From Patescibacteria group bacterium (GTDB lineage: Bacteria; Patescibacteriota; UBA1384; 2-12-FULL-50-11): 64,000 bases of DNA. Under the pieces are notes generated by a model, which did no database searches, was not told the DNA's origin, and saw only the letters and a program-made list of their open reading frames with translations. Positions within the stretch are counted from its first letter, which is position 1, and each line of letters opens with the position of its first letter. The translations under genes were made by a program, and so were the position numbers. This document shows positions 39,170 through 59,025 of the stretch, piece after piece. The stretch lies in assembly GCA_016861245.1 (NCBI GenBank), contig BOKZ01000001.1, positions 188,347 to 252,346 of the forward strand. The letters are read 5' to 3'.

Positions 39170-40747
39170 ATGGCGAGGGATTTGCGCTCAGTTGTACGGA
39201 GCTTCGATCGACAGCAAGAAGAAGAGCAGGTTGCGCTCTTTGCGTCGCAGAAGGGCTTGCCGTACGTTAACCTAGTAAATTACCCATTCGTCGGTGATGT
39301 CTTAAATATTATCCCCGAAGAGCAAGCGCTTCAGTATCGACTAGTGGCGTTTATGCGACTCGGTCAAACTGTGCGCGTTGCCACTCCGGATCCGTTCCAA
39401 CAAGGCTTAGCCGAGACGATGAACGAATTGGGCGCTAAAATCGGCATTACATTCGAGCCGTATATCTGCTCAAACACCTCGATCGCTTACGCGTTGTCTC
39501 GATATCCGTTACTGGTACAAAAGCCAAAACCAACTTCGATCCAACAATCGACAAAAGAAGAATTCGCTACTCAGATTACCGGCCTTAAAGATCTCCAGGC
39601 AGCGATCGGTCGGGTATCCACTAGTGAGTTATTAGATACGATCATCTCCGGTGCGGTTGCGCTTGAGGCGTCGGATATCCACTTCGAGCCGATGGAGTCT
39701 TCTGTCCACATCCGATTCCGTATCGACGGCCGATTACTACCGATAATCGAGATCCCTGAAAAGTCGTACCACGCGTTATCGTCCAGAATTAAAACTGCTG
39801 CCCATATTAAATTAGATATTAAGAAAGTCGCTCAGGACGGCCGAATGACGGTCAAGATCGGCGAGACTCCGATCGATATTCGAGTTAACGCCATTCCGAC
39901 AACGTTTGGCCAAACTATCGAGTTACGCCTCCTTGCTAACCACGAAATGCTCTCGATCGACCAGCTCGGTTTTGCGCCAGCAACGCTCCAGGCGATTATG
40001 CAGTCGATCGCCAAACCAGAAGGCCTTATTCTTTTTACTGGCCCAACCGGCTCGGGTAAGAGCACTAGTCTCTACTCCGTCTTACAGATATTAAACAAAC
40101 CCGATCGCAAAATTATCACCTTAGAAGATCCTGTTGAGTACCGGTTGGATGGGATCGAGCAGGTTCAGATCGAACCAGCAGGCGAGACGATTAGCGTTAG
40201 CCATAAAGGGAAGGACGGTCAGACCAACGAGCAGGTTAGCACCGGCGCCTTCGATTTTGCGCAAGCGCTTAGGGCAGCGCTGCGCCAAGATCCGGATATT
40301 ATTATGGTTGGAGAAATTCGCGATAAAGAGACCGCCGAGATCGCTGTGAACGCCGCGCTGACGGGGCACTTGGTCTTAAGCACGCTCCACACCAACAGCG
40401 CACCGGCTGCGTTTGCCCGTCTTATCCAAATGGGCGTGCCGAAATACCTACTTGCTGACGCAATTTCGCTGGTGGTAGCGCAACGACTTGTCCGTAAGCT
40501 CTGCCAGTACTGCAAGGGGACTGGCTGCGAGCAGTGCAACAACACAGGCTTTAAAGGTAGAATCTTGATCGCTGAGCACTATATCCCAGATCAACAGACA
40601 GTTGAGCTGATTAAACGAGAGGCGACGCTTGGCGAATTTGAGCAGCAATTTACTGCCGTAGGCAACAAGACGTTACTTCAAGATGGTTTGGAGAAAGTTT
40701 CTCAGGGGTTAACGACTGAAGCTGAGATTAGATCAGTAACAGAGTAA
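39170..40747 (+). CDS. GspE/PilB-family secretion/pilus assembly ATPase
   Basis: Walker A GPTGSGKST, Asp/His boxes, tetracysteine CQYC...CEQC motif, N-terminal T2SSE_N-like domain. Confidence 0.85.
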   Translation: MARDLRSVVRSFDRQQEEEQVALFASQKGLPYVNLVNYPFVGDVLNIIPEEQALQYRLVAFMRLGQTVRVATPDPFQQGLAETMNELGAKIGITFEPYICSNTSIAYALSRYPLLVQKPKPTSIQQSTKEEFATQITGLKDLQAAIGRVSTSELLDTIISGAVALEASDIHFEPMESSVHIRFRIDGRLLPIIEIPEKSYHALSSRIKTAAHIKLDIKKVAQDGRMTVKIGETPIDIRVNAIPTTFGQTIELRLLANHEMLSIDQLGFAPATLQAIMQSIAKPEGLILFTGPTGSGKSTSLYSVLQILNKPDRKIITLEDPVEYRLDGIEQVQIEPAGETISVSHKGKDGQTNEQVSTGAFDFAQALRAALRQDPDIIMVGEIRDKETAEIAVNAALTGHLVLSTLHTNSAPAAFARLIQMGVPKYLLADAISLVVAQRLVRKLCQYCKGTGCEQCNNTGFKGRILIAEHYIPDQQTVELIKREATLGEFEQQFTAVGNKTLLQDGLEKVSQGLTTEAEIRSVTE

Positions 40748-40758: not shown

Positions 40759-40790
40759 AAAAAAGAGGGCCGAAGCCCTCTTTTCTTTTT
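40759..40790. terminator. bidirectional rho-independent terminator
   Basis: aaaaa-AGAGGGC-cgaa-GCCCTCT-tttctttttat between convergent genes. Confidence 0.65.
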
Positions 40791-40798
40791 ATACAATT

Positions 40799-41176
40799 TT
40801 AGCGTTCGCCCGTGAGGAATGTCCCAACGTAGCGCAGAACCAAGTAAGCAACGAGAATGATGATAATACCGATTAAGGCGTTAATAATCCCTTGGCGCGC
40901 GGTCTGGGCTTTACCGGCGTCACCGCCAGCGGTGATGTATTGGAAACCAGAGATAACTAAGTAAAAGAAGGCGACGATCGCAGCGATCGTTAGTACTAAA
41001 CCGATCACTTGACCGAGCAAGTTATTGAACCTGTTGCCAGCATCAGCTGCACTGGTTGGCTTAAACGGACGCAAAAAGTTAAAGTCTCCGAGCGTAAAGC
41101 CGCTGGTTTTGGCTGGGTCGCTGTTACCACCGAACTGTGCCTGCACCGTTGGTATTATGTATTCAGTTAGTTTCAT
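40799..41176 (-). CDS. VirB2/TrbC-like (T4SS-type) pilin family protein
   Basis: Two-helix hairpin with motif FQYITAGGDAGKAQTARQGIINALIGIIIIL; no type IV (class III) prepilin signal. Confidence 0.55.
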   Translation of the reverse strand: MKLTEYIIPTVQAQFGGNSDPAKTSGFTLGDFNFLRPFKPTSAADAGNRFNNLLGQVIGLVLTIAAIVAFFYLVISGFQYITAGGDAGKAQTARQGIINALIGIIIILVAYLVLRYVGTFLTGER

Positions 41177-41234: not shown

Positions 41235-41603
41235 TTAGGCGTTTAAAACATTTTTTAGTAACTGCACGAGCAGATAGGAGAGCGTTGCGATAACTACACC
41301 TATCAGCGCGTACGTAATCGACTTCTTACCCTGTTCGACTTTTTTCTCATCCCCGAAAGCGGTCGTGTAAAGAAACGCCCCGTATAGCAAGTAAACAAAC
41401 GAGCCGATCGCTACGCCGAGCAGCAATAGACTCGTAAAATGGGTAATTGAGTCCGTAAGGCAGCTTGCCCCGGCGGTGCGAACCTTCTCTGGATCGGCAA
41501 TACACTCTGGAATAAGCCCGCCGCCAGTTAAAGCCGTGACACCGCTGCCGCTATCTTGCGCTGCCGCCGAACCGATCCCGAGTAGACTAAGAATTATTTT
41601 CAT
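41235..41603 (-). CDS. VirB2/TrbC-like pilin family protein (paralog)
   Basis: Signal peptide, two Cys, then FLYTTAFGDEKKVEQGKKSITYALIGVVIA core. Confidence 0.55.
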   Translation of the reverse strand: MKIILSLLGIGSAAAQDSGSGVTALTGGGLIPECIADPEKVRTAGASCLTDSITHFTSLLLLGVAIGSFVYLLYGAFLYTTAFGDEKKVEQGKKSITYALIGVVIATLSYLLVQLLKNVLNA

Positions 41604-42787
41604 GGCGCCTCCACTCTAATAACATATCTGGCTCCGGTTGAGGTCTTAATAATTACCTCGGCGGCTTCACCGCTTTGACCGTCTCCGGCGTAGCTAATAC
41701 CAAATAGTTGCGATTGTTGCCAGTTCTGGTCGTTGAAAGTAAATGTGTCTGGAGTAACAGTAACCGGTAGCTTGCCAGTTTTGGTAATCGTCACCGTCAC
41801 TTCTCCTGCCGGTGCGCTTAGCTGTAAGGCGAACTGTTCTGAGATCTGTGTGGTTAAGTCTCGAAGTAGAACGGTGCTTGGCGAGAAGTTGCTTGGATCA
41901 AAAACCAATATTGAGACACCGTTAGGATCGGCAGTAGCGCCAGAGGTAGCGGTGTTTTCGTTTGTAGTACTTGTGGAGTTATTATTATTGGCTGAATCAG
42001 GGATCTGAACTAGCGAGCCACGCTCGCCGATACCCGCAACGTAACGAACGGCAGCGAATGCTAGTAATGCAATGAGTATGCCAATAATCGCCCAGGTAAT
42101 ATTCTTTCGGGCTTTAGCCGTAACCGCCATATCGCCGCCAGATGTAATATATTGATAGCCGCTGTACATAATGCTAAAGAACGCACCAAGAGCGATTAGT
42201 ATAAGTAAGAGTTGGATCAACCTGTCAAACAGACCGCTTATTTCTAACTGCGAGAAACCCAGTCCCTTTAAGTCGTCAGTCGTAATGTTCTCAGCCAACT
42301 TTGTGGGATCACCGCCGCCTGAGCCGCCGGTGCCAGAACCGTTGTTATTACCGCTGCCGCCGTTATTTTCAGAACTACCTTCAACAGTAAATAGTATTTC
42401 TCGCGTCGATAAGCCGTTACCGGATATGATAATTCGCCCGCGTGCCCCGGGTTGGGCCGTCCCCTGGTACTCTAAAACAAGTCGACGACGGCGATTCCAG
42501 TCGTCTCGTGTAAAGGTTAAGTCGTTGCTGCCAGACCAGTAAAAAACGGCGGCGCCCTGGTGTCTGACTTCGAGCGTCACTGGGCTGCTCGGCGCCTCAG
42601 AGAGCGCGATATAAACCGGCCAACTCGATTGCCCAGCGTCTTTTGGCACCGTAAAACTACTTACCCCTTCTTCGCCGGTCGCTGCCTTAAAGATCCGGAT
42701 CGACGGCGCTGCCAACGCTTCGTGGGCAGGAAATTGGAGCGTAACTACACCAATAAGCGCAATGAGAGCGATAAGAATTTTTTTCAT
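41600..42787 (-). CDS. pilin-core protein fused to N- and C-terminal beta-rich extracellular domains
   Basis: Signal peptide; Ig-like domain; G/S/N linker; pilin core YQYITSGGDMAVTAKARKNITWAIIGILIA; S/T/N linker; C-terminal beta domain. 4-nt overlaps with both neighbours. Confidence 0.5.
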   Translation of the reverse strand: MKKILIALIALIGVVTLQFPAHEALAAPSIRIFKAATGEEGVSSFTVPKDAGQSSWPVYIALSEAPSSPVTLEVRHQGAAVFYWSGSNDLTFTRDDWNRRRRLVLEYQGTAQPGARGRIIISGNGLSTREILFTVEGSSENNGGSGNNNGSGTGGSGGGDPTKLAENITTDDLKGLGFSQLEISGLFDRLIQLLLILIALGAFFSIMYSGYQYITSGGDMAVTAKARKNITWAIIGILIALLAFAAVRYVAGIGERGSLVQIPDSANNNNSTSTTNENTATSGATADPNGVSILVFDPSNFSPSTVLLRDLTTQISEQFALQLSAPAGEVTVTITKTGKLPVTVTPDTFTFNDQNWQQSQLFGISYAGDGQSGEAAEVIIKTSTGARYVIRVEAP

Positions 42788-43080
42788 TGTAATCCTAGAA
42801 GCGGAATTAAAACTCGTATTAACAATAACAGCCCAAAACCAACAAGCGCTCCGACGATCATATCTTTGCCATCTTTAGCCTTACTCTCGTCACCGCCACT
42901 CGTTGCGTACTTGAATGCGCCGTAGACGATCATCAAAACGGCTAACGCCGCGGCGATATTTACTGCCAATTTAATTAGATCGAGAAAATACTCCTTAAAC
43001 GTAGTATACGTTCGCTTATCACCTGTTAACGGTACGTTGATCTCGTACGCTAGCGCCCGACTTACAAACCAGTCTAACAT
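42784..43080 (-). CDS. VirB2/TrbC-like pilin family protein (paralog)
   Basis: FKYATSGGDESKAKDGKDMIVGALVGFGLLLL core. Confidence 0.55.
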   Translation of the reverse strand: MLDWFVSRALAYEINVPLTGDKRTYTTFKEYFLDLIKLAVNIAAALAVLMIVYGAFKYATSGGDESKAKDGKDMIVGALVGFGLLLLIRVLIPLLGLQ

Positions 43081-44438
43081 TACGGTGTTACAAATATCTT
43101 GAAGCGCTCCGCCGCTGAGTCGGCGCTGTTTTGAGCGGTCTTCCCGAGTATTACAACTTGGCGGATCGCGTCTTGGAAGATCTCATCTGTCTGCTGCCAC
43201 TCAGGTTTTACAAATTGTTTTGCTGTTCTAAATTGAAGACGGACTAACTCCGCCGCTTCACTTGGCAGCTTGAGCGATGGCACAATAATTGTCGGGTTGT
43301 TGTATTTGGTCGCTGGTGGCTTATTAGTTTTTTCTGAGTATTTCTGCTGCACTAACTCGTTAGCCATGTATGATAGATAATTCCATGAGAGTTGCGGCTG
43401 CGTTGTTTCTGAGTTAACAATGAACGACCAAGTGGTGGCGTAATCAACTCGGTCTGTTTTTTCCTGTCGCTGGACCAACGGAACCACTCTAATCTCAAAG
43501 TTCGGATCTCGATTAAGTATGGTCTGTAACGTTGAGTAGTAGCCGATGAGGGCGCCTGTTTTTTGATTAACAAACGTATCGATCGGATTACCCATCGTAT
43601 CGTTCCAGGAGTAATTCGACTTATCGACTCTGGCAAAGCTGGTATAGAAATCTAGTACGTCGGTCGCCGGGAACTCGGCAACGCCGCCCTTAAATCTGGC
43701 CAAGTTAAAACCGACGTTCTTCTTGTCCTCGGTTAGAATAGCTACCTCGGCCTGAGTCATAAACGCTGTTAGCACGTCGCTTGGCGCGAACGTTGTGTCT
43801 ACTGTACCGAGTGCAATCGCGGAGCGCTGAATCGTTGCTTCCTTGCGCTGGCTAACTACTGCGCTCTGGCTTGATAGGTCGCTCCAAGTGGTTGGCGTAA
43901 CCCCGAGAGTCTTTTTTCCAGCCTCGTCAGCGGCGTTGGCGACGTTATTATAAAAATCTAAATTATAAAGCATCATCAGCGAGTCGGCTGTGAGCGGGAT
44001 ACCGTATAACTTATTCTCAAACACGTTTAGGTCCACCAGTGCTGGTTCGATTTTAGTTTTAGCTAGCGCGATCGGATCTTCCTCGGGGTTTGAGACCACT
44101 GCCGCCAAGCTTTTTGGTGCGTGCTTCGGAATCCAATCGTTTCGAACTAACCAAATATCAGGGCCGTCGCCGTCGGCGATGGCGTTAACTACACGCGCCT
44201 CGTACTCCTTGGCATCTTTGGCGTCGATAAACTCAAATTCCAAACCAACACCTGGGTTGGCGTCCGTAAAGTCTCTCGATATCTCCTGGTAAATCTTCTT
44301 TTCGTCAAACGGCGACCAGATTTTGAGCACTTTGTCTTTAGGCGCAGAGTCGCCGGCGCTCCGTACGAGAAAAATAATTAGCGCCGTTATAACAGCGGCT
44401 CCGATAAGACCAAGTAGTAATAAAACCCCTCGCTTCAT
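43080..44438 (-). CDS. extracellular solute-binding protein (ABC-type family 1-like) with N-terminal anchor
   Basis: N-terminal TM/signal, LKIWSPFDEKK...DGDGPDIWLVRNDWIP pattern typical of sugar SBPs; abuts the first pilin gene. Confidence 0.65.
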   Translation of the reverse strand: MKRGVLLLLGLIGAAVITALIIFLVRSAGDSAPKDKVLKIWSPFDEKKIYQEISRDFTDANPGVGLEFEFIDAKDAKEYEARVVNAIADGDGPDIWLVRNDWIPKHAPKSLAAVVSNPEEDPIALAKTKIEPALVDLNVFENKLYGIPLTADSLMMLYNLDFYNNVANAADEAGKKTLGVTPTTWSDLSSQSAVVSQRKEATIQRSAIALGTVDTTFAPSDVLTAFMTQAEVAILTEDKKNVGFNLARFKGGVAEFPATDVLDFYTSFARVDKSNYSWNDTMGNPIDTFVNQKTGALIGYYSTLQTILNRDPNFEIRVVPLVQRQEKTDRVDYATTWSFIVNSETTQPQLSWNYLSYMANELVQQKYSEKTNKPPATKYNNPTIIVPSLKLPSEAAELVRLQFRTAKQFVKPEWQQTDEIFQDAIRQVVILGKTAQNSADSAAERFKIFVTP

Positions 44439-44480: not shown

Positions 44481-44864
44481 CTACCCAACCTGAACCTTAA
44501 GTACTCGGGTTTTGGTTTTCTCTTGTTTTGGAATCTTAATTGTGAGAATTCCGTTTCGAAGCGACGCCTCGGCTTTAGCTGCGTCTACAGATACTGGAAG
44601 GATGTAAGAGCGCATAAACGAGCCCCAGTAGCACTCTTGGACAAAATAGTTCTGGCGCTCAACGTCTGCCTCGTTACGACGCTGCCCCTTAATTGTTACA
44701 ACCTCATCAGTAATCGAGATCTCAAGATCTTCAATACTAACACCGGCGATTGGTGCCTTTAGTACAACGTTGTCCTCATCTTGATAGGCGTCGATCGCTA
44801 GCTGACCTTCTTCTGATTCGTCTTCGAGCCACTCCTCAGTAATGTGTTCTTCTTTACGTGCCAT
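44481..44864 (-). CDS. Hsp20/alpha-crystallin small heat-shock protein
   Basis: alpha-crystallin domain, GILTIKIPK C-terminal motif; start trimmed to MARKEE (44864). Confidence 0.85.
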   Translation of the reverse strand: MARKEEHITEEWLEDESEEGQLAIDAYQDEDNVVLKAPIAGVSIEDLEISITDEVVTIKGQRRNEADVERQNYFVQECYWGSFMRSYILPVSVDAAKAEASLRNGILTIKIPKQEKTKTRVLKVQVG

Positions 44865-44911
44865 TATAGATATATTATCCACTTGGGCGTACAAGTAAGT
44901 CAAGGAAAAAT

Positions 44912-51575: not shown

Positions 51576-52161
51576 AATCAATAATAGTTGCTGGTATGGA
51601 ACTCGGGACTCCTCGCTCCTTTAACCAGTTCTTGGCGGCAGCCGCGACTATATCTCGCTCTTCTATATAGCTTTTTCCGTCTTTCGGGGTGGTAAAGCGA
51701 TGTTTCACTGAAACAGTAATCGCAGTAATTGACTCGTTATTATGGGTAGCTGAGATCAAGTAATCGATTGTTTCGTGCGGAAACAGCTCTAAATAGGGAA
51801 CTTTTTTAGAAGGGTCTCCTTGGTAGAGTTTAATAAAATCGTCTCCTGAGACCGGACGGAAGTAGAGCAATAACTTATTATCTTTCCCTCTTTCAACACT
51901 GTAGCTCACCGAAACAGGGGCTGAGCCGTTGCCCCAAGCTGTTACCGAGTAGCTTCCCGGTCTCACCCTAGTGCTATACGGTAACGAGCGACTATTTTTA
52001 TGAGAGTCTTTGCTAGTAGTTGCTACTAAACCGGTTTTTATTTGGCTACTTGGGTCTATGCCAATACTAAACGGTACTGTCCGGCTGTACCAAGTAATAA
52101 GCCAAACAAGTAGCCCAAGTGTCGCGATGCCCAAGACAATAATCACTTTTTTACTAATCAT
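51559..52161 (-). CDS. membrane-anchored hypothetical protein (T4SS-cluster associated)
   Basis: Start MISKKVIIVLGIATLGLLVWLI at 52161 with GGAGG RBS; ATGA overlap with the upstream gene stop. Confidence 0.4.
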   Translation of the reverse strand: MISKKVIIVLGIATLGLLVWLITWYSRTVPFSIGIDPSSQIKTGLVATTSKDSHKNSRSLPYSTRVRPGSYSVTAWGNGSAPVSVSYSVERGKDNKLLLYFRPVSGDDFIKLYQGDPSKKVPYLELFPHETIDYLISATHNNESITAITVSVKHRFTTPKDGKSYIEERDIVAAAAKNWLKERGVPSSIPATIIDFTTNN

Positions 52162-53423
52162 GGGTAGTTTACCTCCGTAGCGGCTGGCGGCTGTAAGCAA
52201 GGAATATGGCGCAAGAATTCGTACGGGTAATACCACGCGTCCCAATTGTACGTACCGCCGAGCGTTGGCCTATTATCGAGTCGTTTTGAGATACCAACAT
52301 GAAGGTGGTGAGCCTGCTCGCCGTTCGAGTTGCGTACGTAAACACCAACTTCCGCCAACTTATCACCCTTCTTTACCTGTTGTCCCTCTCTGACCGACGG
52401 CCGTTGCAAGTGGGTGTAGTACCAAAAGATATTATTTGTTTCTCTCACAGTTACTGACGTTGAGCTCTCCCCGTCACCGTCGTTATCGACCGAGACTTTT
52501 ACAACTTCGCCATCGCTGGCGCTAAAGACTCTAGTTCCAACAGGAGCCATTAAGTCGTAACCTTCGTGGCCGGCGTAGGTACCAGTTTTATAGGTACGCT
52601 TGCTAATTACATCACCCCAACCGCCGCGACCAGCGTTTCGGGCAGCCGATTCTTCCGCTACACAGGCATAATTACCCGTAGCCACACCAGCACCACCAGA
52701 AGACTCGCACTGTACCTGATTTTCGACTAACAACCTCACAATATTTAGCCTTTTGTAGTAAGGGTTGCCGTAAGAAGGATGTTTATACGACTCCTCCCAC
52801 CGTTTGCCGCTCTCGTCGTACTGCGTCCTCATAGCTGTAGCATAATTGTAAAACAGTCGAGTATTAATATTAGTTCCAGCTGGGCTGGCGTACATATCTT
52901 CGCCCTGCATCGCCCTTCGAACAGTTTTGTAAACACCCTCTAACTGCTTTTGCCAGCGCTCTTCAGTTGAGCCGCTCAAAACATCAGAACTAGCACCGCT
53001 GTCGTAATGCTTATAGCCAAAGGCTTTTTCTGGGTGCTTGAACTCCTGCTCACCCCACCAAATAGCGATTACGATAGCGGGGTTAATCCCCTCACTCTTA
53101 CCGCGCTCTAATATACTATTAATGTAATAGTCAAACTCTTTTGCGTCCGGCGTTTCCGAACGCATTTTGTTAATCTGGCTTAATCTGTAAGAATCTTTTT
53201 TTAAGATGGCGATCACTTCGCTAGGGTTAGCGCTAATCGAGGTGTCGCTAAAAGCGCTATCGGTTAGGAAACAACCATTACCCCCGAATGAGCCAGTCGG
53301 CTTATCAATCTTTGGTCCCAAGAATGTTGCTAAGAGGATAAACGGCATAATACTACCGACGATCAAGAGAATTGCGGCAAGCGCTACTATAACAATAACA
53401 ACGGCGTTGCCCCGGCGTTGCAT
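52158..53423 (-). CDS. secreted cell-wall hydrolase with C-terminal M23 (LytM) peptidase domain
   Basis: M23 motifs GYDLMAPVGTRVFSASDGEVVKV and AHHLHVGI (HxH); N-terminal TM anchor; start at 53423 forms a TAATG overlap with the giant gene. Confidence 0.65.
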   Translation of the reverse strand: MQRRGNAVVIVIVALAAILLIVGSIMPFILLATFLGPKIDKPTGSFGGNGCFLTDSAFSDTSISANPSEVIAILKKDSYRLSQINKMRSETPDAKEFDYYINSILERGKSEGINPAIVIAIWWGEQEFKHPEKAFGYKHYDSGASSDVLSGSTEERWQKQLEGVYKTVRRAMQGEDMYASPAGTNINTRLFYNYATAMRTQYDESGKRWEESYKHPSYGNPYYKRLNIVRLLVENQVQCESSGGAGVATGNYACVAEESAARNAGRGGWGDVISKRTYKTGTYAGHEGYDLMAPVGTRVFSASDGEVVKVSVDNDGDGESSTSVTVRETNNIFWYYTHLQRPSVREGQQVKKGDKLAEVGVYVRNSNGEQAHHLHVGISKRLDNRPTLGGTYNWDAWYYPYEFLRHIPCLQPPAATEVNYP

Positions 53424-56400
53424 TAGAAGAATCCCCCGAATGCGGCGTGAACCCAATCGGTGGTTTTTGTTGAACGCTGAGTGAAGCCAAGGCCGACGCG
53501 CGGGTTATTAGCTTCGCCTGGGCCAAAAACCTCAAGTGAGCGCGGGTAGAAGTACTCCGCGTTAGCTTGCCGGAAGGTAATAACCTGTACTGGCTTATTC
53601 GCACCTTGCTGTGATGCGCCGTAGTCCATGGTGGCTTCCAGAAGCTTCCCAGTAAAGTAGCGAGACCATGCCATCCAAAGTTTCGGGTCGTTCCCGTCTT
53701 TAAACGGTACGCCGTCGTCCCAGTCAAACGGATTCTCGCCCTCAGCCGGCGTGTCTTTAACCGGTTTATTTGGGTCGTTGTAGTAATCGCCGTAGTTGTA
53801 TTCCAGTTTGTCGTAATCTGGATCAAACTGGGCGTTAGCAAATCGATCTGGCGGCGGAATTGGGCAGAGATAGTCAACGCGGTACGTACCGAATAGGTAT
53901 ATCCCAGCAGCGATAATTAACCCTGCTGGTCCGAGTCCGGCTGCCATCGCGATCGCGCCGGCCACAGCGGCGTTTGTAAACCCAGGTGGCGCCTGGATGG
54001 CCTGGTCGATCGAGGCAAAGAACGCCTGGCAGGCTTCACATGCGTTTAAGGCGATGGTGATTGCCAGAACAGTCAGGTTTGCTTGCGCTTTTGCTAGGCT
54101 GGTCCGAGCGCTGTTAACCAGTGCGTCGCCGGTGCCCGTTAAGCCGGTCAGTGCTTGGACGGTTACGTTAATACCCTGAGCTGCGGCGTGAGCAGCGGTG
54201 AGCGCTCTTGAAGCGGTAATAATACCGTTAATTGCTTGATAAAGTTGGTAAACCGAACCAGCTGGTAGTCCGAGCGCTTTATCGGCCCATTGCGTAACTT
54301 TCCCGATAACAAAATCTCTTCCTAAGTCCGTAAGAGACGGGACGACGACGCGGCCGTCAATCACCAGACCCTTATTAAAGTCGAACCCATTTTGAGAGGC
54401 GTAGTAGATAGATTTAACAAATCCGCTCGGCAGTTCTTGGATCCCAAGGGTGTTAGAGAACCAGGAGTCTAGATAGTTCCACATCCCCTGATACTCGCTA
54501 GCAGTAAAGAAGTTGTCTCGGTTACTGTTTCTTACGAATTGGTAGAAAGTCTTTACGAAGTCACTCGTGAACGGACCGAGGCCGATATCAAGCCGGCTAA
54601 TGAAGGCCCCAACTATTCCGTCAACCTCACGTGAAGTTAACTCGCCTTTATATAACTTCTCGAGCATACCTATTTGGTAGCCTGGCACGAGCGCCGCTAA
54701 TTCTGGATCAAGGTAGGCAAAGACAGCGCTTGTTAGCATTGCCGCCCGCTCTTTATCTGAGCCGCTGAACATAACTCTTGAGAAATCAACGGGTACAAGA
54801 ATGCCGGCTTGACGGAGGAACGCGTCAGAGATTTTATATTTTGTGTTATCGCGTGCGGTTTGGGTTAATTCTTTTCGAGCGCTGTCCTGGTAGAGTTTTC
54901 GGGTCGATTCGGAAAGTTGCATAAACTCGTTAACTTCCATATTTGATCCAGTTTGCTCGTTGAAGAGCGCAACCGCCGCGGCGTTAATCGCATCGCTGTC
55001 GGCAAAGTTAAGTGCGCTTCGGAGCTCTTCGTACGAGAGCTTGCCCTCTTCTGGTAGATATTTATTAGCGAACTCGCTCCACATCGCCGAAGACCAGTGC
55101 TCTAAAGCTTGACGGTAATCACCGTCGATAAAGTTCTCGATGTCGTTGACGTACTCTATTGGAATTCCGGTCGCTTTTGCTAACTTCGCGATCAAACTTC
55201 GTTTCTCGAAATCATTTAAATCGCCGCTAAACGCCCGCGTGATCTGGTTGGCTAATGTCTTTAGCGCGTCTTCGTCGAAGCCGTCGAGTTTAAGCCCGAG
55301 CGCGCCGGCGAGCTGCTTTATCCCTTCGGCAATCAACAACTTAGTGCCGGTTTGTGTATCGCCGAGCGCAAACGCTAAGAACGTATCTCTAGTGAAATTA
55401 GCTTGTCGATCGAGAAACCGTCCCACGAGCGTCACACTGAAATTTAAGGCTTTCGCCCTATCTTCCAGGGGTGCGTTCTCCCAGTTACGAATTGTATCAA
55501 GCAGGAACTGCGCTTCCTGAGTTTTGATTCTAAGTGTTTCGTCAAGGTCGAAATAGTTCCAAATTTGGTCAACACCGATATTAATAAGATTCTCACCACC
55601 GGCTTTTTTAATTAGACTCTTAGTGTCGATCGCGCCGTTCACGAACTGCTCGGTCGTACCGATCGGGACACCAAGAATTAAGTCGGTGTACTCCCATTCT
55701 TCGTAATCGCTGCCAAAATACCGCTCCAGATCGTTACCAGAAAAACTGCCGGCGCTTGGCCGATCTTTCAGATAACCAGCAGGTAGCCCAAGGCGCTGCT
55801 CAACAATCGCTTGCCCGTAGTTTCCTTGAAGATCTCCTGTTAGCGGGATAGTGGTGCCCCGGTCTAAACCAAGTAGACTTGTGATCGAGTTGCCAAACAC
55901 CTCTTGCAGCGCGATTTCTAACTTCTTCTCACCCTTAATCACTTGGTAACCGGTACCTATGTTCCAGCCGATAATATTATCAGCTTGGGCGCCGCCGACT
56001 TTTTGCAAGACGCTTAAGCCATCACCCCTAACAACGGCTTGGACATCTTGCGCCGAAAGCTGGTTCTGTGGGTCGAGTTCAAGCTCCTTATTAATAAAGT
56101 TCGTTAGAACGCCGATTGACTTTGAGTTAAACTTGCCTCGAGTTAGATCGCGGGCGCTCGAAAAATCCAATCCTGTTTGTTCGGCGATAACGCTGGCGGC
56201 GATGTTATCCTTCAAATACCCAAGAGTTATCTCCTTGCCGGCTAGCAGGTCACGTACTACGCCGTTACCGATTGCCCGGTACTGACCCGGTATTCCTTTA
56301 ACAGCTGCTTCTCTGAGAAAGTTGTAGCCGTAGTCGCGTAGTTCTGTTAGTGCCGCCTGCTGTTTAGCTTTATCTTCAGCGAAAAGTTTAGCCAAAGAGG

Positions 56401-57712
56401 CGATCGGAACACTCCGATCGATCGGGGCGTTTTCGAGGGTGATAGGCGGCGTAGTTCTGGCTCTAGTTGCAGATTCTAACGCTTGGCGCTGTTGATCAGT
56501 TAGCCGAAAAGCGTCAGCTAAAACGTTGACGCCGGCCCAAATTAGCCCCTCTGTATCGTTTCGCTGGATTTTATCGATCGTACCGGTTATCACTCCGAAA
56601 GCCGCGTCTTTTTTCTCGAGAGCGCTAAAGACGCCTTTAACCGTTTCGATCTTGTTCATATCTTCGAGTGAGTGGGTGTCTAGAAAGAGCGTCGGTAGTC
56701 CGGTAGCGTTTTCGACTGTACGCTTACCGGCACTTTCCAGTATCTGTCGCCACCCACTTCCTCGGAGTGTTCCGGGCGGAACGCCGAGTAGCATCTCGAT
56801 ATTAGCGCGGGCGATCGCGATGCGAGTGTCTTGGTCGTTGTCAGCGATCGAGAAGCCTTCGGGTAGCCCAGGAATAATTTTGTGTAAATAGCTAGCACCG
56901 ATTGAGCGTATAAGTGAATCTGCTAACGGGTCGCTTGTAATCGAGCCACCGCCAAACTCCTTGAGTAGAATATTAGCGCCGACGTACAGTAAAACATCTT
57001 CCAACCGCAAGCCCTTACCGAACTCAGCGAGAAAATCCATCTCGCCAGATTCGTTTAACATCTGCATAATTCCGTCGGTACCGAGCGTACCGGCGATCTC
57101 AGTTAAGCTTGGTCCACGTGGCGTCGGGTTTCGAGCGATACCGTCACGGCTCTGCCAAGCCACTTTTATTGGCTTAGCGCGCTGAAAACGAGTTTTGTTA
57201 CCACCGAGATGCCGTCGCTCAACGAGTTTGCAGGTTATCTTACCGACTTCAGAGATATCGACCGCCTGGCCAGTGCTGTGCGCCGAGACAATTCCGACAT
57301 CTTCTTCGATCGCGTCGAGCGATTCTCGATCGTACTTACCACGTCCGTCGGTATCGTAATTTTTGAGTATCCGTTGGGCCTTAATGTACGGTAGCCCGGC
57401 ACCGCCGAACTCCTTTGGCTTAACGAGATAAATCAAGTAGTCGGTAACCCGAACGTCAACTCGACCCTCCTCGATCGCCGCTCGATCTTGTGGCGAGAGC
57501 TGAATCTTGTCTTCCGTATCGAAGATCCACTCAAGATCGAGAACTGAGTCGGCGTCGGCGGTAACCCCGGTTGGGGCGACGTCTTCTAGTGAGTCAAGTT
57601 CCTCTTCGCTTGGTTGCGCTTGTGCTAGTGCCGTGCTTGTAACAAGAATCGGCTGGAACCCAAGCGTTAAAGTAAGAATAGCGCCAATTAATAGTTTATA
57701 AGCCCCTACCAT
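53423..57712 (-). CDS. giant secreted protein (1429 aa), T4SS-associated; function unknown
   Basis: N-terminal signal peptide (…ALAQAQP); long largely alpha/coil body; hydrophobic helices near the C-terminus (AVAGAIAMAAGLGPAGLIIAAGIYLFG); 1-nt overlaps at both ends. Confidence 0.6.
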   Translation of the reverse strand: MVGAYKLLIGAILTLTLGFQPILVTSTALAQAQPSEEELDSLEDVAPTGVTADADSVLDLEWIFDTEDKIQLSPQDRAAIEEGRVDVRVTDYLIYLVKPKEFGGAGLPYIKAQRILKNYDTDGRGKYDRESLDAIEEDVGIVSAHSTGQAVDISEVGKITCKLVERRHLGGNKTRFQRAKPIKVAWQSRDGIARNPTPRGPSLTEIAGTLGTDGIMQMLNESGEMDFLAEFGKGLRLEDVLLYVGANILLKEFGGGSITSDPLADSLIRSIGASYLHKIIPGLPEGFSIADNDQDTRIAIARANIEMLLGVPPGTLRGSGWRQILESAGKRTVENATGLPTLFLDTHSLEDMNKIETVKGVFSALEKKDAAFGVITGTIDKIQRNDTEGLIWAGVNVLADAFRLTDQQRQALESATRARTTPPITLENAPIDRSVPIASLAKLFAEDKAKQQAALTELRDYGYNFLREAAVKGIPGQYRAIGNGVVRDLLAGKEITLGYLKDNIAASVIAEQTGLDFSSARDLTRGKFNSKSIGVLTNFINKELELDPQNQLSAQDVQAVVRGDGLSVLQKVGGAQADNIIGWNIGTGYQVIKGEKKLEIALQEVFGNSITSLLGLDRGTTIPLTGDLQGNYGQAIVEQRLGLPAGYLKDRPSAGSFSGNDLERYFGSDYEEWEYTDLILGVPIGTTEQFVNGAIDTKSLIKKAGGENLINIGVDQIWNYFDLDETLRIKTQEAQFLLDTIRNWENAPLEDRAKALNFSVTLVGRFLDRQANFTRDTFLAFALGDTQTGTKLLIAEGIKQLAGALGLKLDGFDEDALKTLANQITRAFSGDLNDFEKRSLIAKLAKATGIPIEYVNDIENFIDGDYRQALEHWSSAMWSEFANKYLPEEGKLSYEELRSALNFADSDAINAAAVALFNEQTGSNMEVNEFMQLSESTRKLYQDSARKELTQTARDNTKYKISDAFLRQAGILVPVDFSRVMFSGSDKERAAMLTSAVFAYLDPELAALVPGYQIGMLEKLYKGELTSREVDGIVGAFISRLDIGLGPFTSDFVKTFYQFVRNSNRDNFFTASEYQGMWNYLDSWFSNTLGIQELPSGFVKSIYYASQNGFDFNKGLVIDGRVVVPSLTDLGRDFVIGKVTQWADKALGLPAGSVYQLYQAINGIITASRALTAAHAAAQGINVTVQALTGLTGTGDALVNSARTSLAKAQANLTVLAITIALNACEACQAFFASIDQAIQAPPGFTNAAVAGAIAMAAGLGPAGLIIAAGIYLFGTYRVDYLCPIPPPDRFANAQFDPDYDKLEYNYGDYYNDPNKPVKDTPAEGENPFDWDDGVPFKDGNDPKLWMAWSRYFTGKLLEATMDYGASQQGANKPVQVITFRQANAEYFYPRSLEVFGPGEANNPRVGLGFTQRSTKTTDWVHAAFGGFF

Positions 57713-59025
57713 CAGTCTGCTCCGTACCTCTTGGCGCCGTTAAACTTATGAGTGGTTAGTGGTCGCTCTTTAATCGTTGTGGTCTGAGAGGACGAGTCGA
57801 TAATCTTACCGTTGCCGATATAGATTCCGACGTGGTCAAATAAGGCGCCAGCGTATCGTCGTTGGGCGCGACTACCGTTCCCAAACCAGACGATGTCCCC
57901 TGGCCGCATCACGCCCTCGTTGATCCGCTCGTTACTAGCAGTCTCAGCTCGGTCAATCACAAGTCTTAATACTTTATTGTTCCAAAGAGCGGTAGTGGTC
58001 CCGACAATTGCGTTTGGTACGCCAGATTCCCATAAAGTTGTGGACGAGAACGAGGCACAGGCTAGCTTATCTGGCGCACCAGTTATCCGACAGAAGTTAC
58101 CAGTAGGCTCGCCGACATGGGTTTTGGCGTTAGCTACGATCCATGTTCCAAACGGCAACGTGCCCTCGAACTCCAACATTTTTTTCTGCAAATCGTCGCG
58201 AATCTTCATCCGCTCAACTTTATTAGAGGTTTTAAGGAGAGAGTCTAAGATCGGTGTGAACTCTACGATCTTGGCATCAATTGCGGCGACTTTATTCGCG
58301 GAGTGCTTCTGAGCGTTGCCTTTAATCCGTTGATAGCGATCCTTCTCGTCCTCAACAACCTCTTTTACTGTTTTATCGTTTGCGATCTTATCGCCCGATA
58401 ACGCTGAGAGTAGTGTAGCCTGTTCTTGTTGCGAAACGCTGGTCGGATATCGCGCTGGTCCCTTGCCAGTGTCACCACTAAATGAGAAGAGGGCAACGAT
58501 AATGAGAACTATAATTATCACTAGCAGGATAATCCCAACCGCTAGCCACACATACGGATTTTTAGCGAGAAGCTGAGTTACTAGCTTTTTTATCGCTTGA
58601 CCGATCGCTTTACCTGCTTGTTTGGCGGCCTTTTTCGTTGCTTCGCCAGCGGCTCGAGCCGCTGCTCGGGCGCTTCGCTCACCCGCCTTTACCGGTTGTT
58701 GTTCAACTCTTTTGGCAGCGCTTTGTTCGGCATTTTTAGAGACGGTCTTTTGGGCGACTTGTCGGCCGGACTTTACCTCCTCGGCAATCTGCTGAGAACG
58801 CTCTAGTTCCTTCTGATGCAACTCCTGACGCTTAGTCGCCTCTATCGGGTCCGTTTTAGTTGGCGACTCAGTGCTGCGGCGCTGTCTAATCTCATCCCAG
58901 ACTTGTTGAAGATCAGGCTCGGATTCTTCTTGTTCATTAAGCTGTCCGACGAGCTCCTCTGGGGTATCGTCGAACTCCTCTTCTGGTGTTAGTGGTGGTG
59001 GTGTTTTTGGATCCCCTCCGGCCAT
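57712..59025 (-). CDS. bitopic cell-wall hydrolase with C-terminal NlpC/P60 domain (PrgK/VirB1-like role)
   Basis: Acidic and K/A-rich cytoplasmic N-terminus, one TM helix, C-terminal NlpC/P60 signature (…GAPDKLACASF…GDIVWFGNG…HVGIYIGNGKIID). Confidence 0.6.
   Translation of the reverse strand: MAGGDPKTPPPLTPEEEFDDTPEELVGQLNEQEESEPDLQQVWDEIRQRRSTESPTKTDPIEATKRQELHQKELERSQQIAEEVKSGRQVAQKTVSKNAEQSAAKRVEQQPVKAGERSARAAARAAGEATKKAAKQAGKAIGQAIKKLVTQLLAKNPYVWLAVGIILLVIIIVLIIVALFSFSGDTGKGPARYPTSVSQQEQATLLSALSGDKIANDKTVKEVVEDEKDRYQRIKGNAQKHSANKVAAIDAKIVEFTPILDSLLKTSNKVERMKIRDDLQKKMLEFEGTLPFGTWIVANAKTHVGEPTGNFCRITGAPDKLACASFSSTTLWESGVPNAIVGTTTALWNNKVLRLVIDRAETASNERINEGVMRPGDIVWFGNGSRAQRRYAGALFDHVGIYIGNGKIIDSSSQTTTIKERPLTTHKFNGAKRYGAD

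What the first reader, a model, noticed from the sequence alone, without database searches (positions are those of the whole stretch)
41600..42787. Chimeric pilin: pilin core sandwiched between Ig-like N-terminal and beta-rich C-terminal extracellular domains
This 395-aa ORF has a signal peptide, an Ig-like domain of about 130 aa and a G/S/N linker. A canonical pilin core follows (YQYITSGGDMAVTAKARKNITWAIIGILIA), then an S/T/N-rich linker and a second beta-rich domain. A pilin subunit carrying globular domains on both sides of its membrane hairpin would place adhesin-like modules on the filament or act as a tip/adhesin subunit. This is unusual for VirB2-family proteins.
Basis: seen in the sequence. 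Interest (0 to 1): 0.6.

Follow-up and report, generated by a model that had tools for sequence, protein, structure and literature searches.

The report
Ig-decorated VirB2-like pilin in Patescibacteria
A conserved gene of an ultra-small (CPR/Patescibacteria-type) bacterium encodes a conjugation-type pilin whose two-helix membrane hairpin carries an immunoglobulin-like module on a flexible tether at each outward-facing end. This layout has not been described for this pilin class and suggests a surface filament or anchor that displays its own adhesin modules.

Summary
ORF 41600-42787 (-) encodes 395 aa: Sec signal peptide, beta-sandwich (aa 27-137), G/S/N linker, two-helix hairpin (aa 183-256), S/T/N linker, second beta-sandwich (aa 283-395). 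It is not an artefact. The same reading frame occurs in independent assemblies and in orthologues at 80, 50 and about 28% identity, with far fewer amino-acid-changing than silent differences. The hairpin is paralogous to three small PF18895 (T4SS_pilin) genes in the same operon. The two beta modules are homologous to each other (hhalign 98.9%) and to repeats of giant surface proteins, with a generic PapD/MSP-type Ig fold.

New here: the gene is "position 2" of a conserved cassette (solute-binding-protein homologue, pilin 1, Ig-decorated pilin, pilin 3, pilin 4, convergent PilB-like ATPase). The cassette lies next to Hsp20, with yidC-rnpA-dnaA alongside wherever the contig reaches that far. In all ten cassette loci examined, position 2 carries at least one Ig module, although the number and side vary.

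The array type is known and essential in Southlakia epibionticum, but the pilins described there are plain (103-185 aa). The function is inferred: outward display of adhesin-like modules on a T4SS-type pilus or on the membrane. Verdict: real, a new variant of a known kind, moderately high interest.

The parts
41600..42787 (-). Whole gene: 395-aa Ig-hairpin-Ig 'decorated pilin' (position 2 of the cassette)
   Evidence: ORF. Identical or near-identical protein in independent assemblies. Orthologues at 80%, 50% and about 28% identity with the same layout.
42710..42787 (-). Sec-type signal peptide, aa 1-26 (MKKILIALIALIGVVTLQFPAHEALA|AP)
   Evidence: Hydrophobic segment aa 1-23 followed by A-x-A. 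No lipobox Cys and no prepilin G|F..E motif (read from the sequence).
42377..42709 (-). N-terminal Ig-like beta-sandwich module, aa 27-137
42242..42376 (-). Linker 1, aa 138-182: G/S/N-rich disordered tether plus a conserved pre-helix segment (ENITTDDLKGLGFSQLE)
   Evidence: pLDDT below 50. 79% G/S/N/T in aa 138-165. Indels and 48-77% identity between species.
42020..42241 (-). Pilin hairpin, aa 183-256: TM helix 1, basic loop with the SGGD motif, TM helix 2
   Evidence: PF18895 E 3.3e-5, aa 184-243. phmmer E 1e-14, 5e-11 and 5e-6 to the three neighbouring pilins. Helices 183-215 and 220-256. Hairpin-only model pLDDT 90.3. 1 of 74 sites varies among strains.
41942..42019 (-). Linker 2, aa 257-282: S/T/N-rich disordered tether
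   Evidence: pLDDT below 50. 18% identity with 10 gapped columns against the 50% orthologue.
41603..41941 (-). C-terminal Ig-like beta-sandwich module, aa 283-395; same family as the N module and as repeats of giant surface proteins
   Evidence: pLDDT 81-95. hhalign N against C 98.9%. Up to 39 tandem matches in 1000-7000-aa proteins. This is the fastest-evolving folded part (33% identity at 50% overall; 7 of 113 sites vary among strains).
42784..43080 (-). Pilin 1 (98 aa), plain T4SS_pilin; its stop overlaps the target's start (ATGA)
   Evidence: PF18895 41.9 bits. Orthologous group by position.
41235..41603 (-). Pilin 3 (122 aa), plain T4SS_pilin with signal peptide; its start overlaps the target's stop
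   Evidence: PF18895 36.2 bits. Orthologous group by position. The Berkelbacteria orthologue is 526 aa with extra domains.
40799..41176 (-). Pilin 4 (125 aa), plain T4SS_pilin; the most conserved member
   Evidence: PF18895 36.5 bits and PF04956 TrbC/VirB2 19.6 bits, below cut-off. Orthologous group by position.
43080..44438 (-). First gene of the operon: 452-aa membrane-anchored homologue of extracellular solute-binding proteins
   Evidence: N-terminal TM. Weak MalE N-terminal match. Orthologues hit PF13416 and PF01547. Present upstream in every cassette whose contig reaches that far.
40761..40784 (.). G+C-rich hairpin with T runs on both strands: shared terminator of the pilin operon and the convergent ATPase gene
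   Evidence: Terminator scan; sequence.
39170..40747 (+). Convergent, solitary PilB/GspE-like ATPase (MshEN + T2SSE), conserved neighbour of the cassette
   Evidence: PF00437 392 bits, PF05157. Same position in the loci that extend that far.
44481..44903 (-). Hsp20 gene, conserved neighbour of the pilin arrays
   Evidence: PF00011 in the identical JGI locus. Also next to the arrays in other lineages and next to the essential array SEML1_0014-0019 (SEML1_0020).
59028..61649 (-). VirB4/TraC-like T4SS ATPase (873 aa), about 16 kb away on the other side of dnaA-dnaN-recF
   Evidence: PF19044 TraG P-loop 93 bits, AAA_10. Named TraC by JGI.
52158..59025 (-). T4SS-associated genes next to virB4: NlpC/P60 protein (57712-59025), 1429-aa exported protein without Pfam match (53423-57712), M23 peptidase (52158-53456)
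   Evidence: Pfam; TM and signal-peptide scan. The arrangement mirrors SEML1_0006-0008.

Best explanation
The gene encodes a genuine, conserved member of the Patescibacteria-type VirB2-like 'T4SS_pilin' hairpin family that has acquired one Ig-like beta-sandwich module at each end.

Shown:
- The Sec signal peptide, the even number of membrane helices and the basic inter-helix loop (KARK) place both modules outside the cell and the loop in the cytoplasm.
- Each module hangs on a disordered low-complexity tether.
- The gene is co-transcribed (overlapping stops and starts) with three plain paralogous pilins.
- It is the fixed 'position 2' of an ancient four-pilin cassette.

Inferred: the hairpin co-assembles with the three plain pilins into whatever structure this cassette builds with the nearby monoderm-type T4SS. 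The most likely structure is a conjugative-type pilus, in which the loop lines the lumen and both termini face outward. The 395-aa protein would then be a minor subunit that displays adhesin-like Ig modules on the outside.

The conserved N module would contact a conserved partner or the cell's own envelope. The fast-evolving C module would contact the host-cell surface.
For: - Architecture and topology.
- Paralogy of the hairpin with the three flanking PF18895 pilins.
- One operon: ATGA overlaps and a single downstream terminator.
- Not an artefact and under purifying selection.
- Positional orthology: hairpin cores from four genomes fall into four groups by gene position. Scores are 54-139 bits within a group and 31-76 bits between groups; the two ranges overlap only for position 2, which is closest to position 4.
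- Position 2 is Ig-decorated in all ten cassette loci seen: window, L005, L007, L008, L009, L011-L015 (L016 duplicates L015).
- The Ig module is the same module that is repeated 8-39 times in giant proteins, several with signal peptides and some with C-terminal TM anchors, i.e. a surface or adhesin-type repeat.
- Differential rates: N 76%, hairpin 58%, C 33% identity against the 50% orthologue. Among strains, variable sites are 1.4% in the hairpin and 6.2% in the C module.
- T4SS context: VirB4, NlpC/P60 and M23 genes lie in the window across dnaA.
- Literature: homologous pilin arrays are essential for epibiotic growth in S. epibionticum and are thought to form a pilus (PMC10633639, PMC12857230, PMC12102498).
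- Established knowledge (F-pilus and T-pilus structures; not checked in a paper here): in VirB2/TraA pili both termini are on the outer surface and the inter-helix loop lines the lumen.
Against: - No pilus built from PF18895 proteins has been seen in any Patescibacterium. The filaments resolved so far are type IV pili and Pam pili.
- The link to canonical VirB2 is weak for this protein. PF18895 scores just under its cut-off and PF04956 does not hit.
- There is no sequence match to any solved pilin.
- The hairpin fold search is non-discriminating. The best conjugative pilin, 8dfu, ranks 12th at E 2.8.
- The position-2 hairpin is the least conserved of the four between lineages, which fits a looser structural role.
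- Rough geometry from my own arithmetic: about 650 square angstroms of pilus surface per subunit, against about 1500 for two Ig domains. This rules out a tightly packed homopolymer, so only a minor or interspersed role, or a brush on long tethers, is feasible.
- Hairpins of the same family are also fused to an NlpC/P60 hydrolase. That can equally be read as a plain membrane anchor.
- The cassette is about 16 kb from virB4, and its constant neighbour is a PilB-like ATPase, not a T4SS gene.
Confidence: 0.5

Rival explanations
1. Membrane-resident display. The hairpin is only a two-helix membrane anchor, possibly docking at the T4SS or at the solute-binding protein, and never polymerises. The protein is a cell-surface adhesin or spacer holding two Ig modules on tethers above the cytoplasmic membrane.
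For: - The same hairpin family is fused to non-adhesin domains, including an NlpC/P60 cell-wall hydrolase (L050), other large flanking domains (L061, L077) and 3-8 hairpins in one chain. That suits a generic membrane scaffold.
- The position-2 hairpin is the least conserved of the four between lineages.
- No PF18895 pilus has been observed.
- PmoB/AmoB shows that a beta-domain, two TM helices and a second beta-domain make a stable membrane-protein layout.
Against: - The hairpin keeps the family motifs and is the most invariant part among strains.
- The gene is locked in one operon and one position among three plain pilins across deep divergence. A simple anchor would not need that.
- A single TM helix or a lipobox would be a cheaper anchor.
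Confidence: 0.3
2. Pro-domains. The Ig modules are removed by proteolysis in the low-complexity linkers. The result is a small mature pilin, as with the long leader of TraA/VirB2 and the C-terminal trimming of TrbC, plus free secreted Ig proteins.
For: - Terminal processing is the rule in canonical VirB2-family pilins (established knowledge: VirB2 121 to 74 aa; RP4 TrbC trimmed at both ends).
- The linkers are disordered and exposed.
- The side and number of modules vary between lineages, as if they were dispensable for the mature subunit.
Against: - The modules are under purifying selection (nonsynonymous differences 0.07-0.11 against saturated synonymous differences).
- They are homologous to repeats of large surface proteins, so they have a function of their own.
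- No conserved cleavage motif is visible in the linkers, which differ in length and sequence between species.
- No TraF-like peptidase was seen in the ORFs of the window that were scanned; only part of the window was scanned.
Confidence: 0.1
3. Component of a donor-strand (Pam-type or chaperone-usher-like) pilus system. The two PapD-like Ig modules would act as a membrane-tethered chaperone, or as a PamR-like terminator and anchor.
For: - CPR Pam pili use membrane-anchored PapD-like chaperones and an RbmA-like anchor with a TM helix (preprint 10.64898/2026.03.03.709456).
Against: - The similarity is generic Ig fold only (9-15% identity).
- Pam proteins have a single C-terminal TM helix, not a pilin hairpin.
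- The operon holds only T4SS_pilin paralogues.
- Long disordered tethers argue against a rigid two-lobed chaperone. pTM is 0.36, with no confident inter-domain packing.
Confidence: 0.04
4. Artefact: three genes fused by a frameshift or misassembly.
For: None found. The low-complexity linkers are the kind of sequence where indel errors occur.
Against: - The same 395-aa product is present in JGI, Logan, ENA and NCBI assemblies. Fourteen full-length strain variants listed for a 23-member cluster are all exactly 395 aa.
- The frame is intact in orthologues at 80%, 50% and about 28% identity.
- Neither beta module has a start codon with a signal peptide of its own. The C module could not be exported without the hairpin.
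Confidence: 0.01

Closest known systems
VirB2-like pilin arrays of Patescibacteria (PF18895), e.g. SEML1_0014-0019 of Ca. Southlakia epibionticum (Wang 2023, PMC10633639; Quinonero-Coronel 2025, PMC12102498)
   Same: - Same hairpin family and tandem arrays of divergent paralogues.
- Location near dnaA, Hsp20 and a monoderm-type T4SS (VirB4, cell-wall hydrolases).
- No relaxase or coupling protein was seen in the ORFs scanned here.
   Different: - The described pilins are plain, 103-185 aa. Here one member is 395 aa with an Ig module on each end.
- The array here is a fixed four-gene cassette with positional orthologues, headed by a solute-binding-protein homologue and followed by a convergent PilB-like ATPase.
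- The long plain arrays next to Hsp20 (L021, L026, L065, L068), which resemble the Southlakia arrangement, showed no Ig-decorated member.
Canonical conjugative pilins VirB2 / TraA / TrbC (PF04956) and archaeal CedA1/TedC
   Same: - A small hydrophobic two-helix hairpin with a short polar or basic loop.
- Membrane topology with both termini outside (established knowledge).
- Leader peptide removal.
- A paralogue in the operon gives a weak PF04956 hit (E 1e-3).
- A. pernix CedA1 (8dfu) appears among the hairpin fold matches (TM-score 0.58).
   Different: - No significant sequence or fold match for the target itself.
- To my knowledge, no known member carries a folded extracellular domain.
- The known ones work in diderm bacteria or archaea, and adhesion there is provided by separate proteins (VirB5, TraN, PrgB-type adhesins).
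Modular type IV pilins (e.g. Streptococcus sanguinis PilB/PilC with grafted vWA or lectin modules; recalled from Raynaud et al. 2021, not checked here)
   Same: Same design principle: a pilin polymerisation module fused to a functional, adhesive globular module, incorporated as a minor subunit. It works like this if the pilus model is right.
   Different: - Unrelated pilin fold and machinery: a single N-terminal helix, prepilin peptidase and PilB/PilC assembly.
- The module is grafted at one end only.
- The target lacks the class III signal peptide (read from the sequence).
Repeats of giant bacterial surface proteins (relatives annotated PF17766 fn3_6 or PF03160 Calx-beta)
   Same: The C module, and through it the N module, matches 8-39 tandem repeats in proteins of 1000-7000 aa (E down to 3e-94 for the whole protein). 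The shared motif is 'LtFTpxNWxxxQ..V.Y.GdG..G'. The fold is a beta-sandwich.
   Different: - Here there are single copies flanking a membrane hairpin rather than a long stalk.
- No Pfam model reaches significance on the target's modules.
PmoB/AmoB subunits of particulate methane/ammonia monooxygenase
   Same: These are the best Foldseek matches to the whole model because of the identical layout: beta-sandwich, two TM helices, beta-sandwich (E 2e-7).
   Different: TM-score is only 0.18 with 11% identity. The domains are cupredoxin type and belong to a metabolic enzyme. This is a topological analogy only.
Pam pili of CPR bacteria (preprint 10.64898/2026.03.03.709456)
   Same: CPR-specific surface filaments built from Ig-like domains. 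The accessory proteins are PapD-like or RbmA-like and membrane-anchored.
   Different: Pam pilins are soluble two-domain proteins joined by donor-strand exchange. They have no helical hairpin and no PF18895 genes in the operon.

Membership tests
Pfam PF18895 T4SS_pilin (monoderm/Patescibacteria VirB2-like pilins) | Match to the family HMM at or above the gathering score (26.6 bits) | tested here: inconclusive
   The target scores 24.3 bits, E 3.3e-5, covering positions 6-64 of 71. Orthologues P0020, P0077 and L013 score 27.3-29 bits, above the cut-off. The three operon paralogues score 36-42 bits. The target hairpin matches them at E 1e-14 to 5e-6.
Pfam PF18895 T4SS_pilin (monoderm/Patescibacteria VirB2-like pilins) | Two hydrophobic helices joined by a short polar/basic loop with the (S/A)GGD motif | tested here: met
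   Hydropathy segments at about 181-212 and 228-255. The loop QYITSGGDMAVTAKARKNI carries 3 K/R against 1 D/E. AF2 helices at 183-215 and 220-256. Hairpin-only model pLDDT 90.3.
Pfam PF18895 T4SS_pilin (monoderm/Patescibacteria VirB2-like pilins) | Gene lies in a tandem array of divergent pilin paralogues near T4SS genes and the replication origin | tested here: met
   Four consecutive pilin genes at 40799-43080. VirB4, NlpC/P60 and M23 genes lie at 52-62 kb, and dnaA/dnaN/yidC lie between. This matches the published description.
Pfam PF18895 T4SS_pilin (monoderm/Patescibacteria VirB2-like pilins) | Small single-domain protein (about 90-190 aa) | tested here: not met
   395 aa with two extra folded modules. 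The experimentally studied array members are 103-185 aa.
Canonical VirB2/TrbC/TraA conjugative pilins (PF04956) | Sequence match to PF04956 or to a solved conjugative pilin | tested here: not met
   The target gives no PF04956 hit. The 125-aa paralogue scores 19.6 bits, below the 27.9 cut-off. Profile searches of PDB sequences found no pilin.
Canonical VirB2/TrbC/TraA conjugative pilins (PF04956) | Helical-hairpin fold superimposable on solved pilins | tested here: inconclusive
   Foldseek of the hairpin model gave no hit below E 0.8. A. pernix conjugation pilin 8dfu ranks 12th (E 2.8, TM-score 0.58) among generic hairpins such as ATP synthase subunit c and histidine-kinase DHp domains.
Canonical VirB2/TrbC/TraA conjugative pilins (PF04956) | Polymerises, usually with phospholipid, into a hollow helical pilus on a T4SS | not testable with these tools
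   Needs filament isolation, cryo-EM or multimer modelling. The literature only speaks of a 'potential to elaborate conjugative pili' in Patescibacteria.
Ig-like repeat of giant surface proteins (fn3_6 / Calx-beta-like) | Sequence homology of the flanking modules to the repeat, and to each other | tested here: met
   phmmer finds 8-39 matched stretches per giant protein, e.g. P0008 at E 3.3e-94 (confirmed with domain HMMs). N against C module: hhalign 98.9%, E 2e-17.
Ig-like repeat of giant surface proteins (fn3_6 / Calx-beta-like) | Beta-sandwich (Ig-like) fold | tested here: met
Ig-like repeat of giant surface proteins (fn3_6 / Calx-beta-like) | Match to a curated Pfam model (PF17766 or PF03160) | tested here: not met
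   No Pfam hit on aa 27-137 or 283-395 of the target. Only more distant relatives carry precomputed PF17766 or PF03160.
Type IV pilins (T4P, class III signal peptide) | N-terminal prepilin leader ending in G, followed by a hydrophobic helix with E5 | tested here: not met
   The N-terminus MKKILIALIALIGVVTLQFPAHEALA|AP is a classical Sec signal. The pilin-like helices are internal. This family was considered because a PilB-like ATPase is the constant neighbour.
Pam pilus system of CPR bacteria | Two-domain soluble pilin with a donor strand, or PapD-like chaperone / RbmA-like anchor with one C-terminal TM helix, in a pam operon | not tested
By description the architecture differs. Only generic Ig-fold similarity was seen.

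The most novel reading that the evidence does not exclude
The cassette is solute-binding-protein homologue, pilin 1, decorated pilin 2, pilin 3, pilin 4 and a convergent PilB-like ATPase. On this reading it is a distinct, anciently conserved surface organelle of a subset of Patescibacteria. Its four hairpin proteins have fixed, non-redundant structural roles rather than being interchangeable antigenic variants.

The hairpin would be a general display scaffold that puts folded modules on the outside of a conjugative-type filament:
- Ig adhesin modules at position 2;
- an HExxH-motif domain at position 3 in Berkelbacteria;
- NlpC/P60 hydrolases in other arrays.

The 395-aa protein would then be the host-recognition subunit of the structure through which these epibionts attach to, and perhaps breach, the host envelope.
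Probability: 0.25. Interest if true: 0.8.

Novelty: new variant of a known kind. Interest (0 to 1): 0.6.

Why it matters
T4SS-linked VirB2-like pilin arrays are among the few gene sets shown to be essential for the epibiotic life of Patescibacteria. What they build and how they touch the host is unknown.

A conserved array member that carries adhesin-type Ig modules on both outward-facing ends gives a concrete handle on this. The modules can be expressed alone for binding and antibody work. Their presence on a filament or on the membrane can be tested directly.

Their evolutionary pattern (constant N module, fast C module) points to where host specificity may lie.

The positional orthology of the four pilins argues against the current 'antigenic variation' reading of these arrays and for a hetero-oligomeric structure.

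More generally, every characterised conjugative pilin is a bare hairpin. A naturally domain-decorated one would widen what this filament class is thought able to carry.

Tried and rejected
1. Frameshift or misassembly: rejected.
2. Type IV pilin, considered because of the neighbouring PilB-like ATPase: rejected, no prepilin leader.
3. Searching for a solved relative by sequence, with the whole-protein profile and a 32-sequence hairpin profile: nothing usable.
4. Fold search of the hairpin alone, to test VirB2 membership: non-discriminating.
5. AFDB50 fold search: library not available.
6. Profile search of the 5.8-billion-protein set with alignment A2: the word pre-filter limited it to 17 hits and added little.
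It was replaced by a scan with the conserved position-4 pilin (A5). That also removed bias towards decorated proteins.
It was rerun as A4.
9. Naming the organism: the record is only 'MAG: bacterium isolate DTUPAT3'. There is no paper and no taxon in the cluster names. Assignment to Patescibacteria rests on three things: contigs carrying these proteins of no more than 685 kb, the T4SS/dnaA layout, and a syntenic orthologue in Candidatus Berkelbacteria.
10. Looking for paralogues of the Ig modules elsewhere in the window: none.
11. Literature searches for any domain-decorated VirB2-like pilin: none found in the held library. This is not proof of absence.
Full report

The minus strand carries an ATG-to-TGA ORF of 395 aa at 41600-42787. 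It has a plausible AGGA ribosome-binding site. ATGA overlaps join it to the gene upstream (98 aa, 42784-43080) and the gene downstream (122 aa, 41235-41603).

A 19-residue hydropathy scan finds exactly three hydrophobic stretches: aa 1-23, about 181-212 and about 228-255. The 19-residue loop between the last two holds three K/R and one D/E. The stretches at 138-165 and 255-295 are 79% and 54% G/S/N/T.

AlphaFold2, run on a 16-sequence alignment of relatives, gives this picture:
- an all-beta domain at 29-135 (pLDDT 83-92);
- two long helices at 183-215 and 220-256 (pLDDT 71-76);
- an all-beta domain at 283-393 (pLDDT 81-95);
- two linkers below pLDDT 50.

Modelled alone with 26 hairpin sequences, the hairpin reaches pLDDT 90.3.

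The signal peptide, the even number of helices and the basic loop together put both beta domains outside the cell. Two corrections apply: the N module is about 110 aa rather than 130, and the two beta domains are copies of one module rather than two kinds (BLASTP E 5e-5; hhalign 98.9%, E 2e-17 over 100 columns).

**2. Is it an artefact?**

No.
- The identical or 99%-identical 395-aa product is called on contigs from JGI sample 3300072978, from Logan runs SRR12234141 and SRR25822372, and on NCBI MAG contig JAJTYJ010000001.1.
- Its 90% cluster has 23 members. The 14 full-length variants read are all exactly 395 aa.
- Orthologues at 80% (P0002), 50% (P0003) and 26-30% identity (P0077, P0020) keep the same tripartite frame in the same operon.
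- Against the 80% orthologue, synonymous sites are saturated (proportion of differences about 0.78). Nonsynonymous differences are 0.07 (N module), 0.10 (hairpin) and 0.11 (C module), against 0.15-0.18 in the linkers.

Linkers change in length and sequence between species. They do not change in length between strains, where they merely carry the highest density of substitutions together with the C module.

**3. What are the parts?**

The hairpin matches Pfam PF18895 (T4SS_pilin) at E 3.3e-5 and 24.3 bits, just under the 26.6-bit gathering score. The three small neighbours score 36-42 bits. NCBIfam gives sub-threshold hits to the Mbov_0395 pilin-like conjugal-transfer family for all four. Within the window the hairpin finds the three neighbours at E 1e-14, 5e-11 and 5e-6, and nothing else.

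The beta modules have no Pfam match. An exhaustive phmmer search of 1.84 billion representatives found 4646 relatives. Among the top hits are proteins of 1000-7000 aa in which the C module is repeated up to 39 times. More distant relatives are annotated fn3_6 or Calx-beta.

**4. Context**

The window is a chromosomal origin region. It holds dnaA, dnaN, a recF-like gene, rpmH, rnpA and yidC.
- On one side lies a monoderm-type T4SS set: a VirB4/TraC-like ATPase at 59028-61649, an NlpC/P60 protein, a 1429-aa exported protein and an M23 peptidase.
- On the other side lie Hsp20 and the operon that holds the target.

This is the arrangement published for Patescibacteria. Arrays of 2-11 VirB2-like pilin genes sit near virB4 and dnaA (PMC12102498). 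In Ca. Southlakia epibionticum they are essential for epibiotic growth (PMC10633639; review PMC12857230). In that organism the six array members are 103-185 aa and are followed by Hsp20.

The record behind the window is an unclassified MAG. Its exact proteins occur on a contig of 685 kb. A syntenic orthologue of the target belongs to Candidatus Berkelbacteria.

**5. What is new**

Comparing the operon across four lineages (window, L007, L008, L009) shows one fixed gene order:
1. a membrane-anchored homologue of solute-binding proteins (about 450 aa);
2. pilin 1 (91-98 aa);
3. the Ig-decorated pilin (360-395 aa);
4. pilin 3 (122-150 aa, or 526 aa in Berkelbacteria);
5. pilin 4 (113-130 aa);
6. 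a convergent, solitary PilB/GspE-like ATPase.

A BLAST matrix of the 16 hairpin cores splits cleanly into four groups by position, not by genome. Scores are 54-139 bits within a group and 31-76 bits between groups. The overlap between the two ranges comes from position 2, which is the most divergent group and sits nearest to position 4.

To avoid bias towards decorated proteins, I fetched 80 metagenome loci using the conserved position-4 pilin and annotated them with my own domain HMMs. Six loci carry the SBP + PilB cassette (L015 and L016 appear to be the same locus). In each of them position 2 is decorated, but in different ways:
- hairpin + Ig (245 aa);
- Ig + hairpin (236 and 260 aa);
- Ig + hairpin + 2 Ig (625 aa);
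- Ig + hairpin + Ig (360 aa).

The other loci hold long arrays of 5-10 plain pilins. Several of these are next to Hsp20, as in Southlakia, and none has an Ig module.

Among the best 150 representatives there are at least 22 clusters at 50% identity that combine Ig modules and a hairpin. They include 1+2 and 2+1 arrangements. So decoration is a constant property of one cassette position, while the detailed module count is fluid.

**6. Mechanism**

Shown: export signal, topology, tethered Ig modules outside the cell, co-transcription with three plain paralogues, and purifying selection on all three folded parts.

Inferred: in solved VirB2/TraA-type pili both termini lie on the outer surface and the inter-helix loop lines the lumen (established knowledge, not checked in a paper here). 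Published outer diameters are 74-87 angstroms (PMC9905601). If the cassette builds such a filament with the nearby T4SS, the modules would project outward.

My rough arithmetic gives about 650 square angstroms of surface per subunit, against about 1500 for two Ig domains. This argues for a minor, interspersed or terminal subunit, or a brush on the 45- and 26-residue tethers, not a homopolymer.

The evolutionary gradient fits a conserved partner for the N module and a variable ligand, such as a host surface, for the C module. Between species, identity is 76% for the N module, 58% for the hairpin and 33% for the C module. Among strains, 1 of 74 hairpin sites varies, against 7 of 113 in the C module. 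I put this model at about 0.5.

**7. Rivals**

- **Membrane-resident display without polymerisation (0.3).** It is supported by the family's other fusions: an NlpC/P60 hydrolase C-terminal to a hairpin (L050, above the Pfam cut-off), large non-Ig flanks (L061, L077) and chains of 3-8 hairpins. It is also supported by the lack of any observed PF18895 pilus.
- **Removable pro-domains, by analogy with VirB2/TrbC processing (0.1).** Selection on the modules and the absence of any conserved cleavage motif weaken this.
- **A Pam-type or chaperone-usher-like role (0.04).** This rests only on generic PapD-like fold similarity.
- **Artefact.** Excluded.

**8. Membership**

The protein meets three features of PF18895: the hairpin, the loop motif and the array context. 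It fails the 'small single-domain' character and narrowly misses the HMM cut-off, which its orthologues pass.

For canonical VirB2 (PF04956) the sequence test fails and the fold test is uninformative. The A. pernix pilin 8dfu appears only at rank 12, E 2.8, among generic hairpins. I therefore file it as a decorated member of the Patescibacteria-type T4SS_pilin family that probably works like a VirB2 pilin. I do not file it as a demonstrated VirB2 homologue.

**9. Novelty and score**

The array type, its genomic setting and its importance are published. I found no report of Ig-decorated members, of the four-position orthology, or of the SBP/PilB-flanked cassette in the searchable library. Every database copy read that carries a name is called 'hypothetical protein', apart from one truncated 232-aa member with a DoxX/SURF4-type name.

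This is a new variant of a known kind. A T4SS specialist would find it surprising, and it gives an experimentally approachable handle on an open question. Its function is still inferred. Interest 0.6.

Noticed in passing
window 43080-44438 (-) and 39170-40747 (+); L005, L007, L008, L009, L011-L016: A membrane-anchored solute-binding-protein homologue is always the first gene of the four-pilin operon. A solitary PilB/GspE-like ATPase with an MshEN domain is always convergent to its end, across lineages as distant as Berkelbacteria. In L048 an SBP gene also precedes a different pilin array. A functional link, for example the ATPase or SBP acting with the hairpin pilins, is possible but untested.
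   Followed up: partly
L009:11076-12656 (+) and protein P0047: The position-3 pilin is 122 aa in the window. In Candidatus Berkelbacteria it is a 526-aa protein. It has an N-terminal region of about 290 aa with a conserved HELLHS(F/Y)VP (HExxH, zincin-like) motif, then an Ig module of the same family, a G/T linker and the hairpin. P0047 (517 aa) has the same layout. No Pfam match for the N region.
   Followed up: partly
L050:378-1580 (+); L061:4981-6975 (+); L077:1459-3021 (+): Other hairpins of the same family are sandwiched between non-Ig extracellular domains. L050 has a Cys-rich N region and a C-terminal NlpC/P60 hydrolase (27.3 bits, above cut-off). L061 (664 aa) has flanks of about 330 aa and about 260 aa, the latter with an 'SNHGVGYACDLH' motif. 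L077 (520 aa) has Cys-rich flanks.
   Followed up: partly
proteins P0026, P0028, P0032, P0042, P0048 and many others: 'Poly-pilins': single chains with 3-8 tandem T4SS_pilin hairpins. Examples are P0026 (552 aa, six hairpins, PF18895 236 bits) and P0042 (820 aa, eight hairpins). Covalently linked pilin subunits are hard to reconcile with a classical helical pilus.
   Followed up: no
proteins P0008-P0155 of 1000-7000 aa: The Ig module is the repeat unit of giant proteins, with up to 39 copies in 4700 aa. Many look high-GC and end in ...RW/...RF-type C-termini suggestive of outer-membrane beta-barrels. So the module is shared between diderm giant adhesin-like proteins and CPR pilins.
   Followed up: no
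window 52158-61649 (-): T4SS block across dnaA from the pilin cassette: VirB4/TraC-like ATPase (873 aa), NlpC/P60 protein (437 aa), a 1429-aa exported protein with one C-terminal TM and no Pfam match, and an M23 peptidase (432 aa). The two ORFs at 62115-63948 also have no Pfam match. No relaxase or coupling protein was seen among the ORFs scanned.
   Followed up: partly
window about 24000-34000: A stretch with lower G+C (41-43% against 49-51% in the flanks). It spans ORFs of which two (22839-24989, 26683-28923) have no Pfam match. Glycosyltransferase, epimerase and polysaccharide-synthesis genes lie in and beside it. It may be an acquired surface-polysaccharide island.
   Followed up: no
window 37397-37488, 39019-39106, 45658-45745, 45841-45914: Three tRNA-Ser genes (GCT, CGA, TGA) and one tRNA-Arg (GCG) bracket the pilin cassette. 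A tRNA-Ser also follows the Hsp20 and pilin array in S. epibionticum (SEML1_0022).
   Followed up: no
window 13111-15492 (-): Two tandem paralogous Wzy_C (O-antigen ligase/polymerase-like) genes, 397 and 395 aa. They sit next to a GT4 glycosyltransferase and a Polysacc_synt flippase, downstream of an H+/Na+-pyrophosphatase.
   Followed up: no
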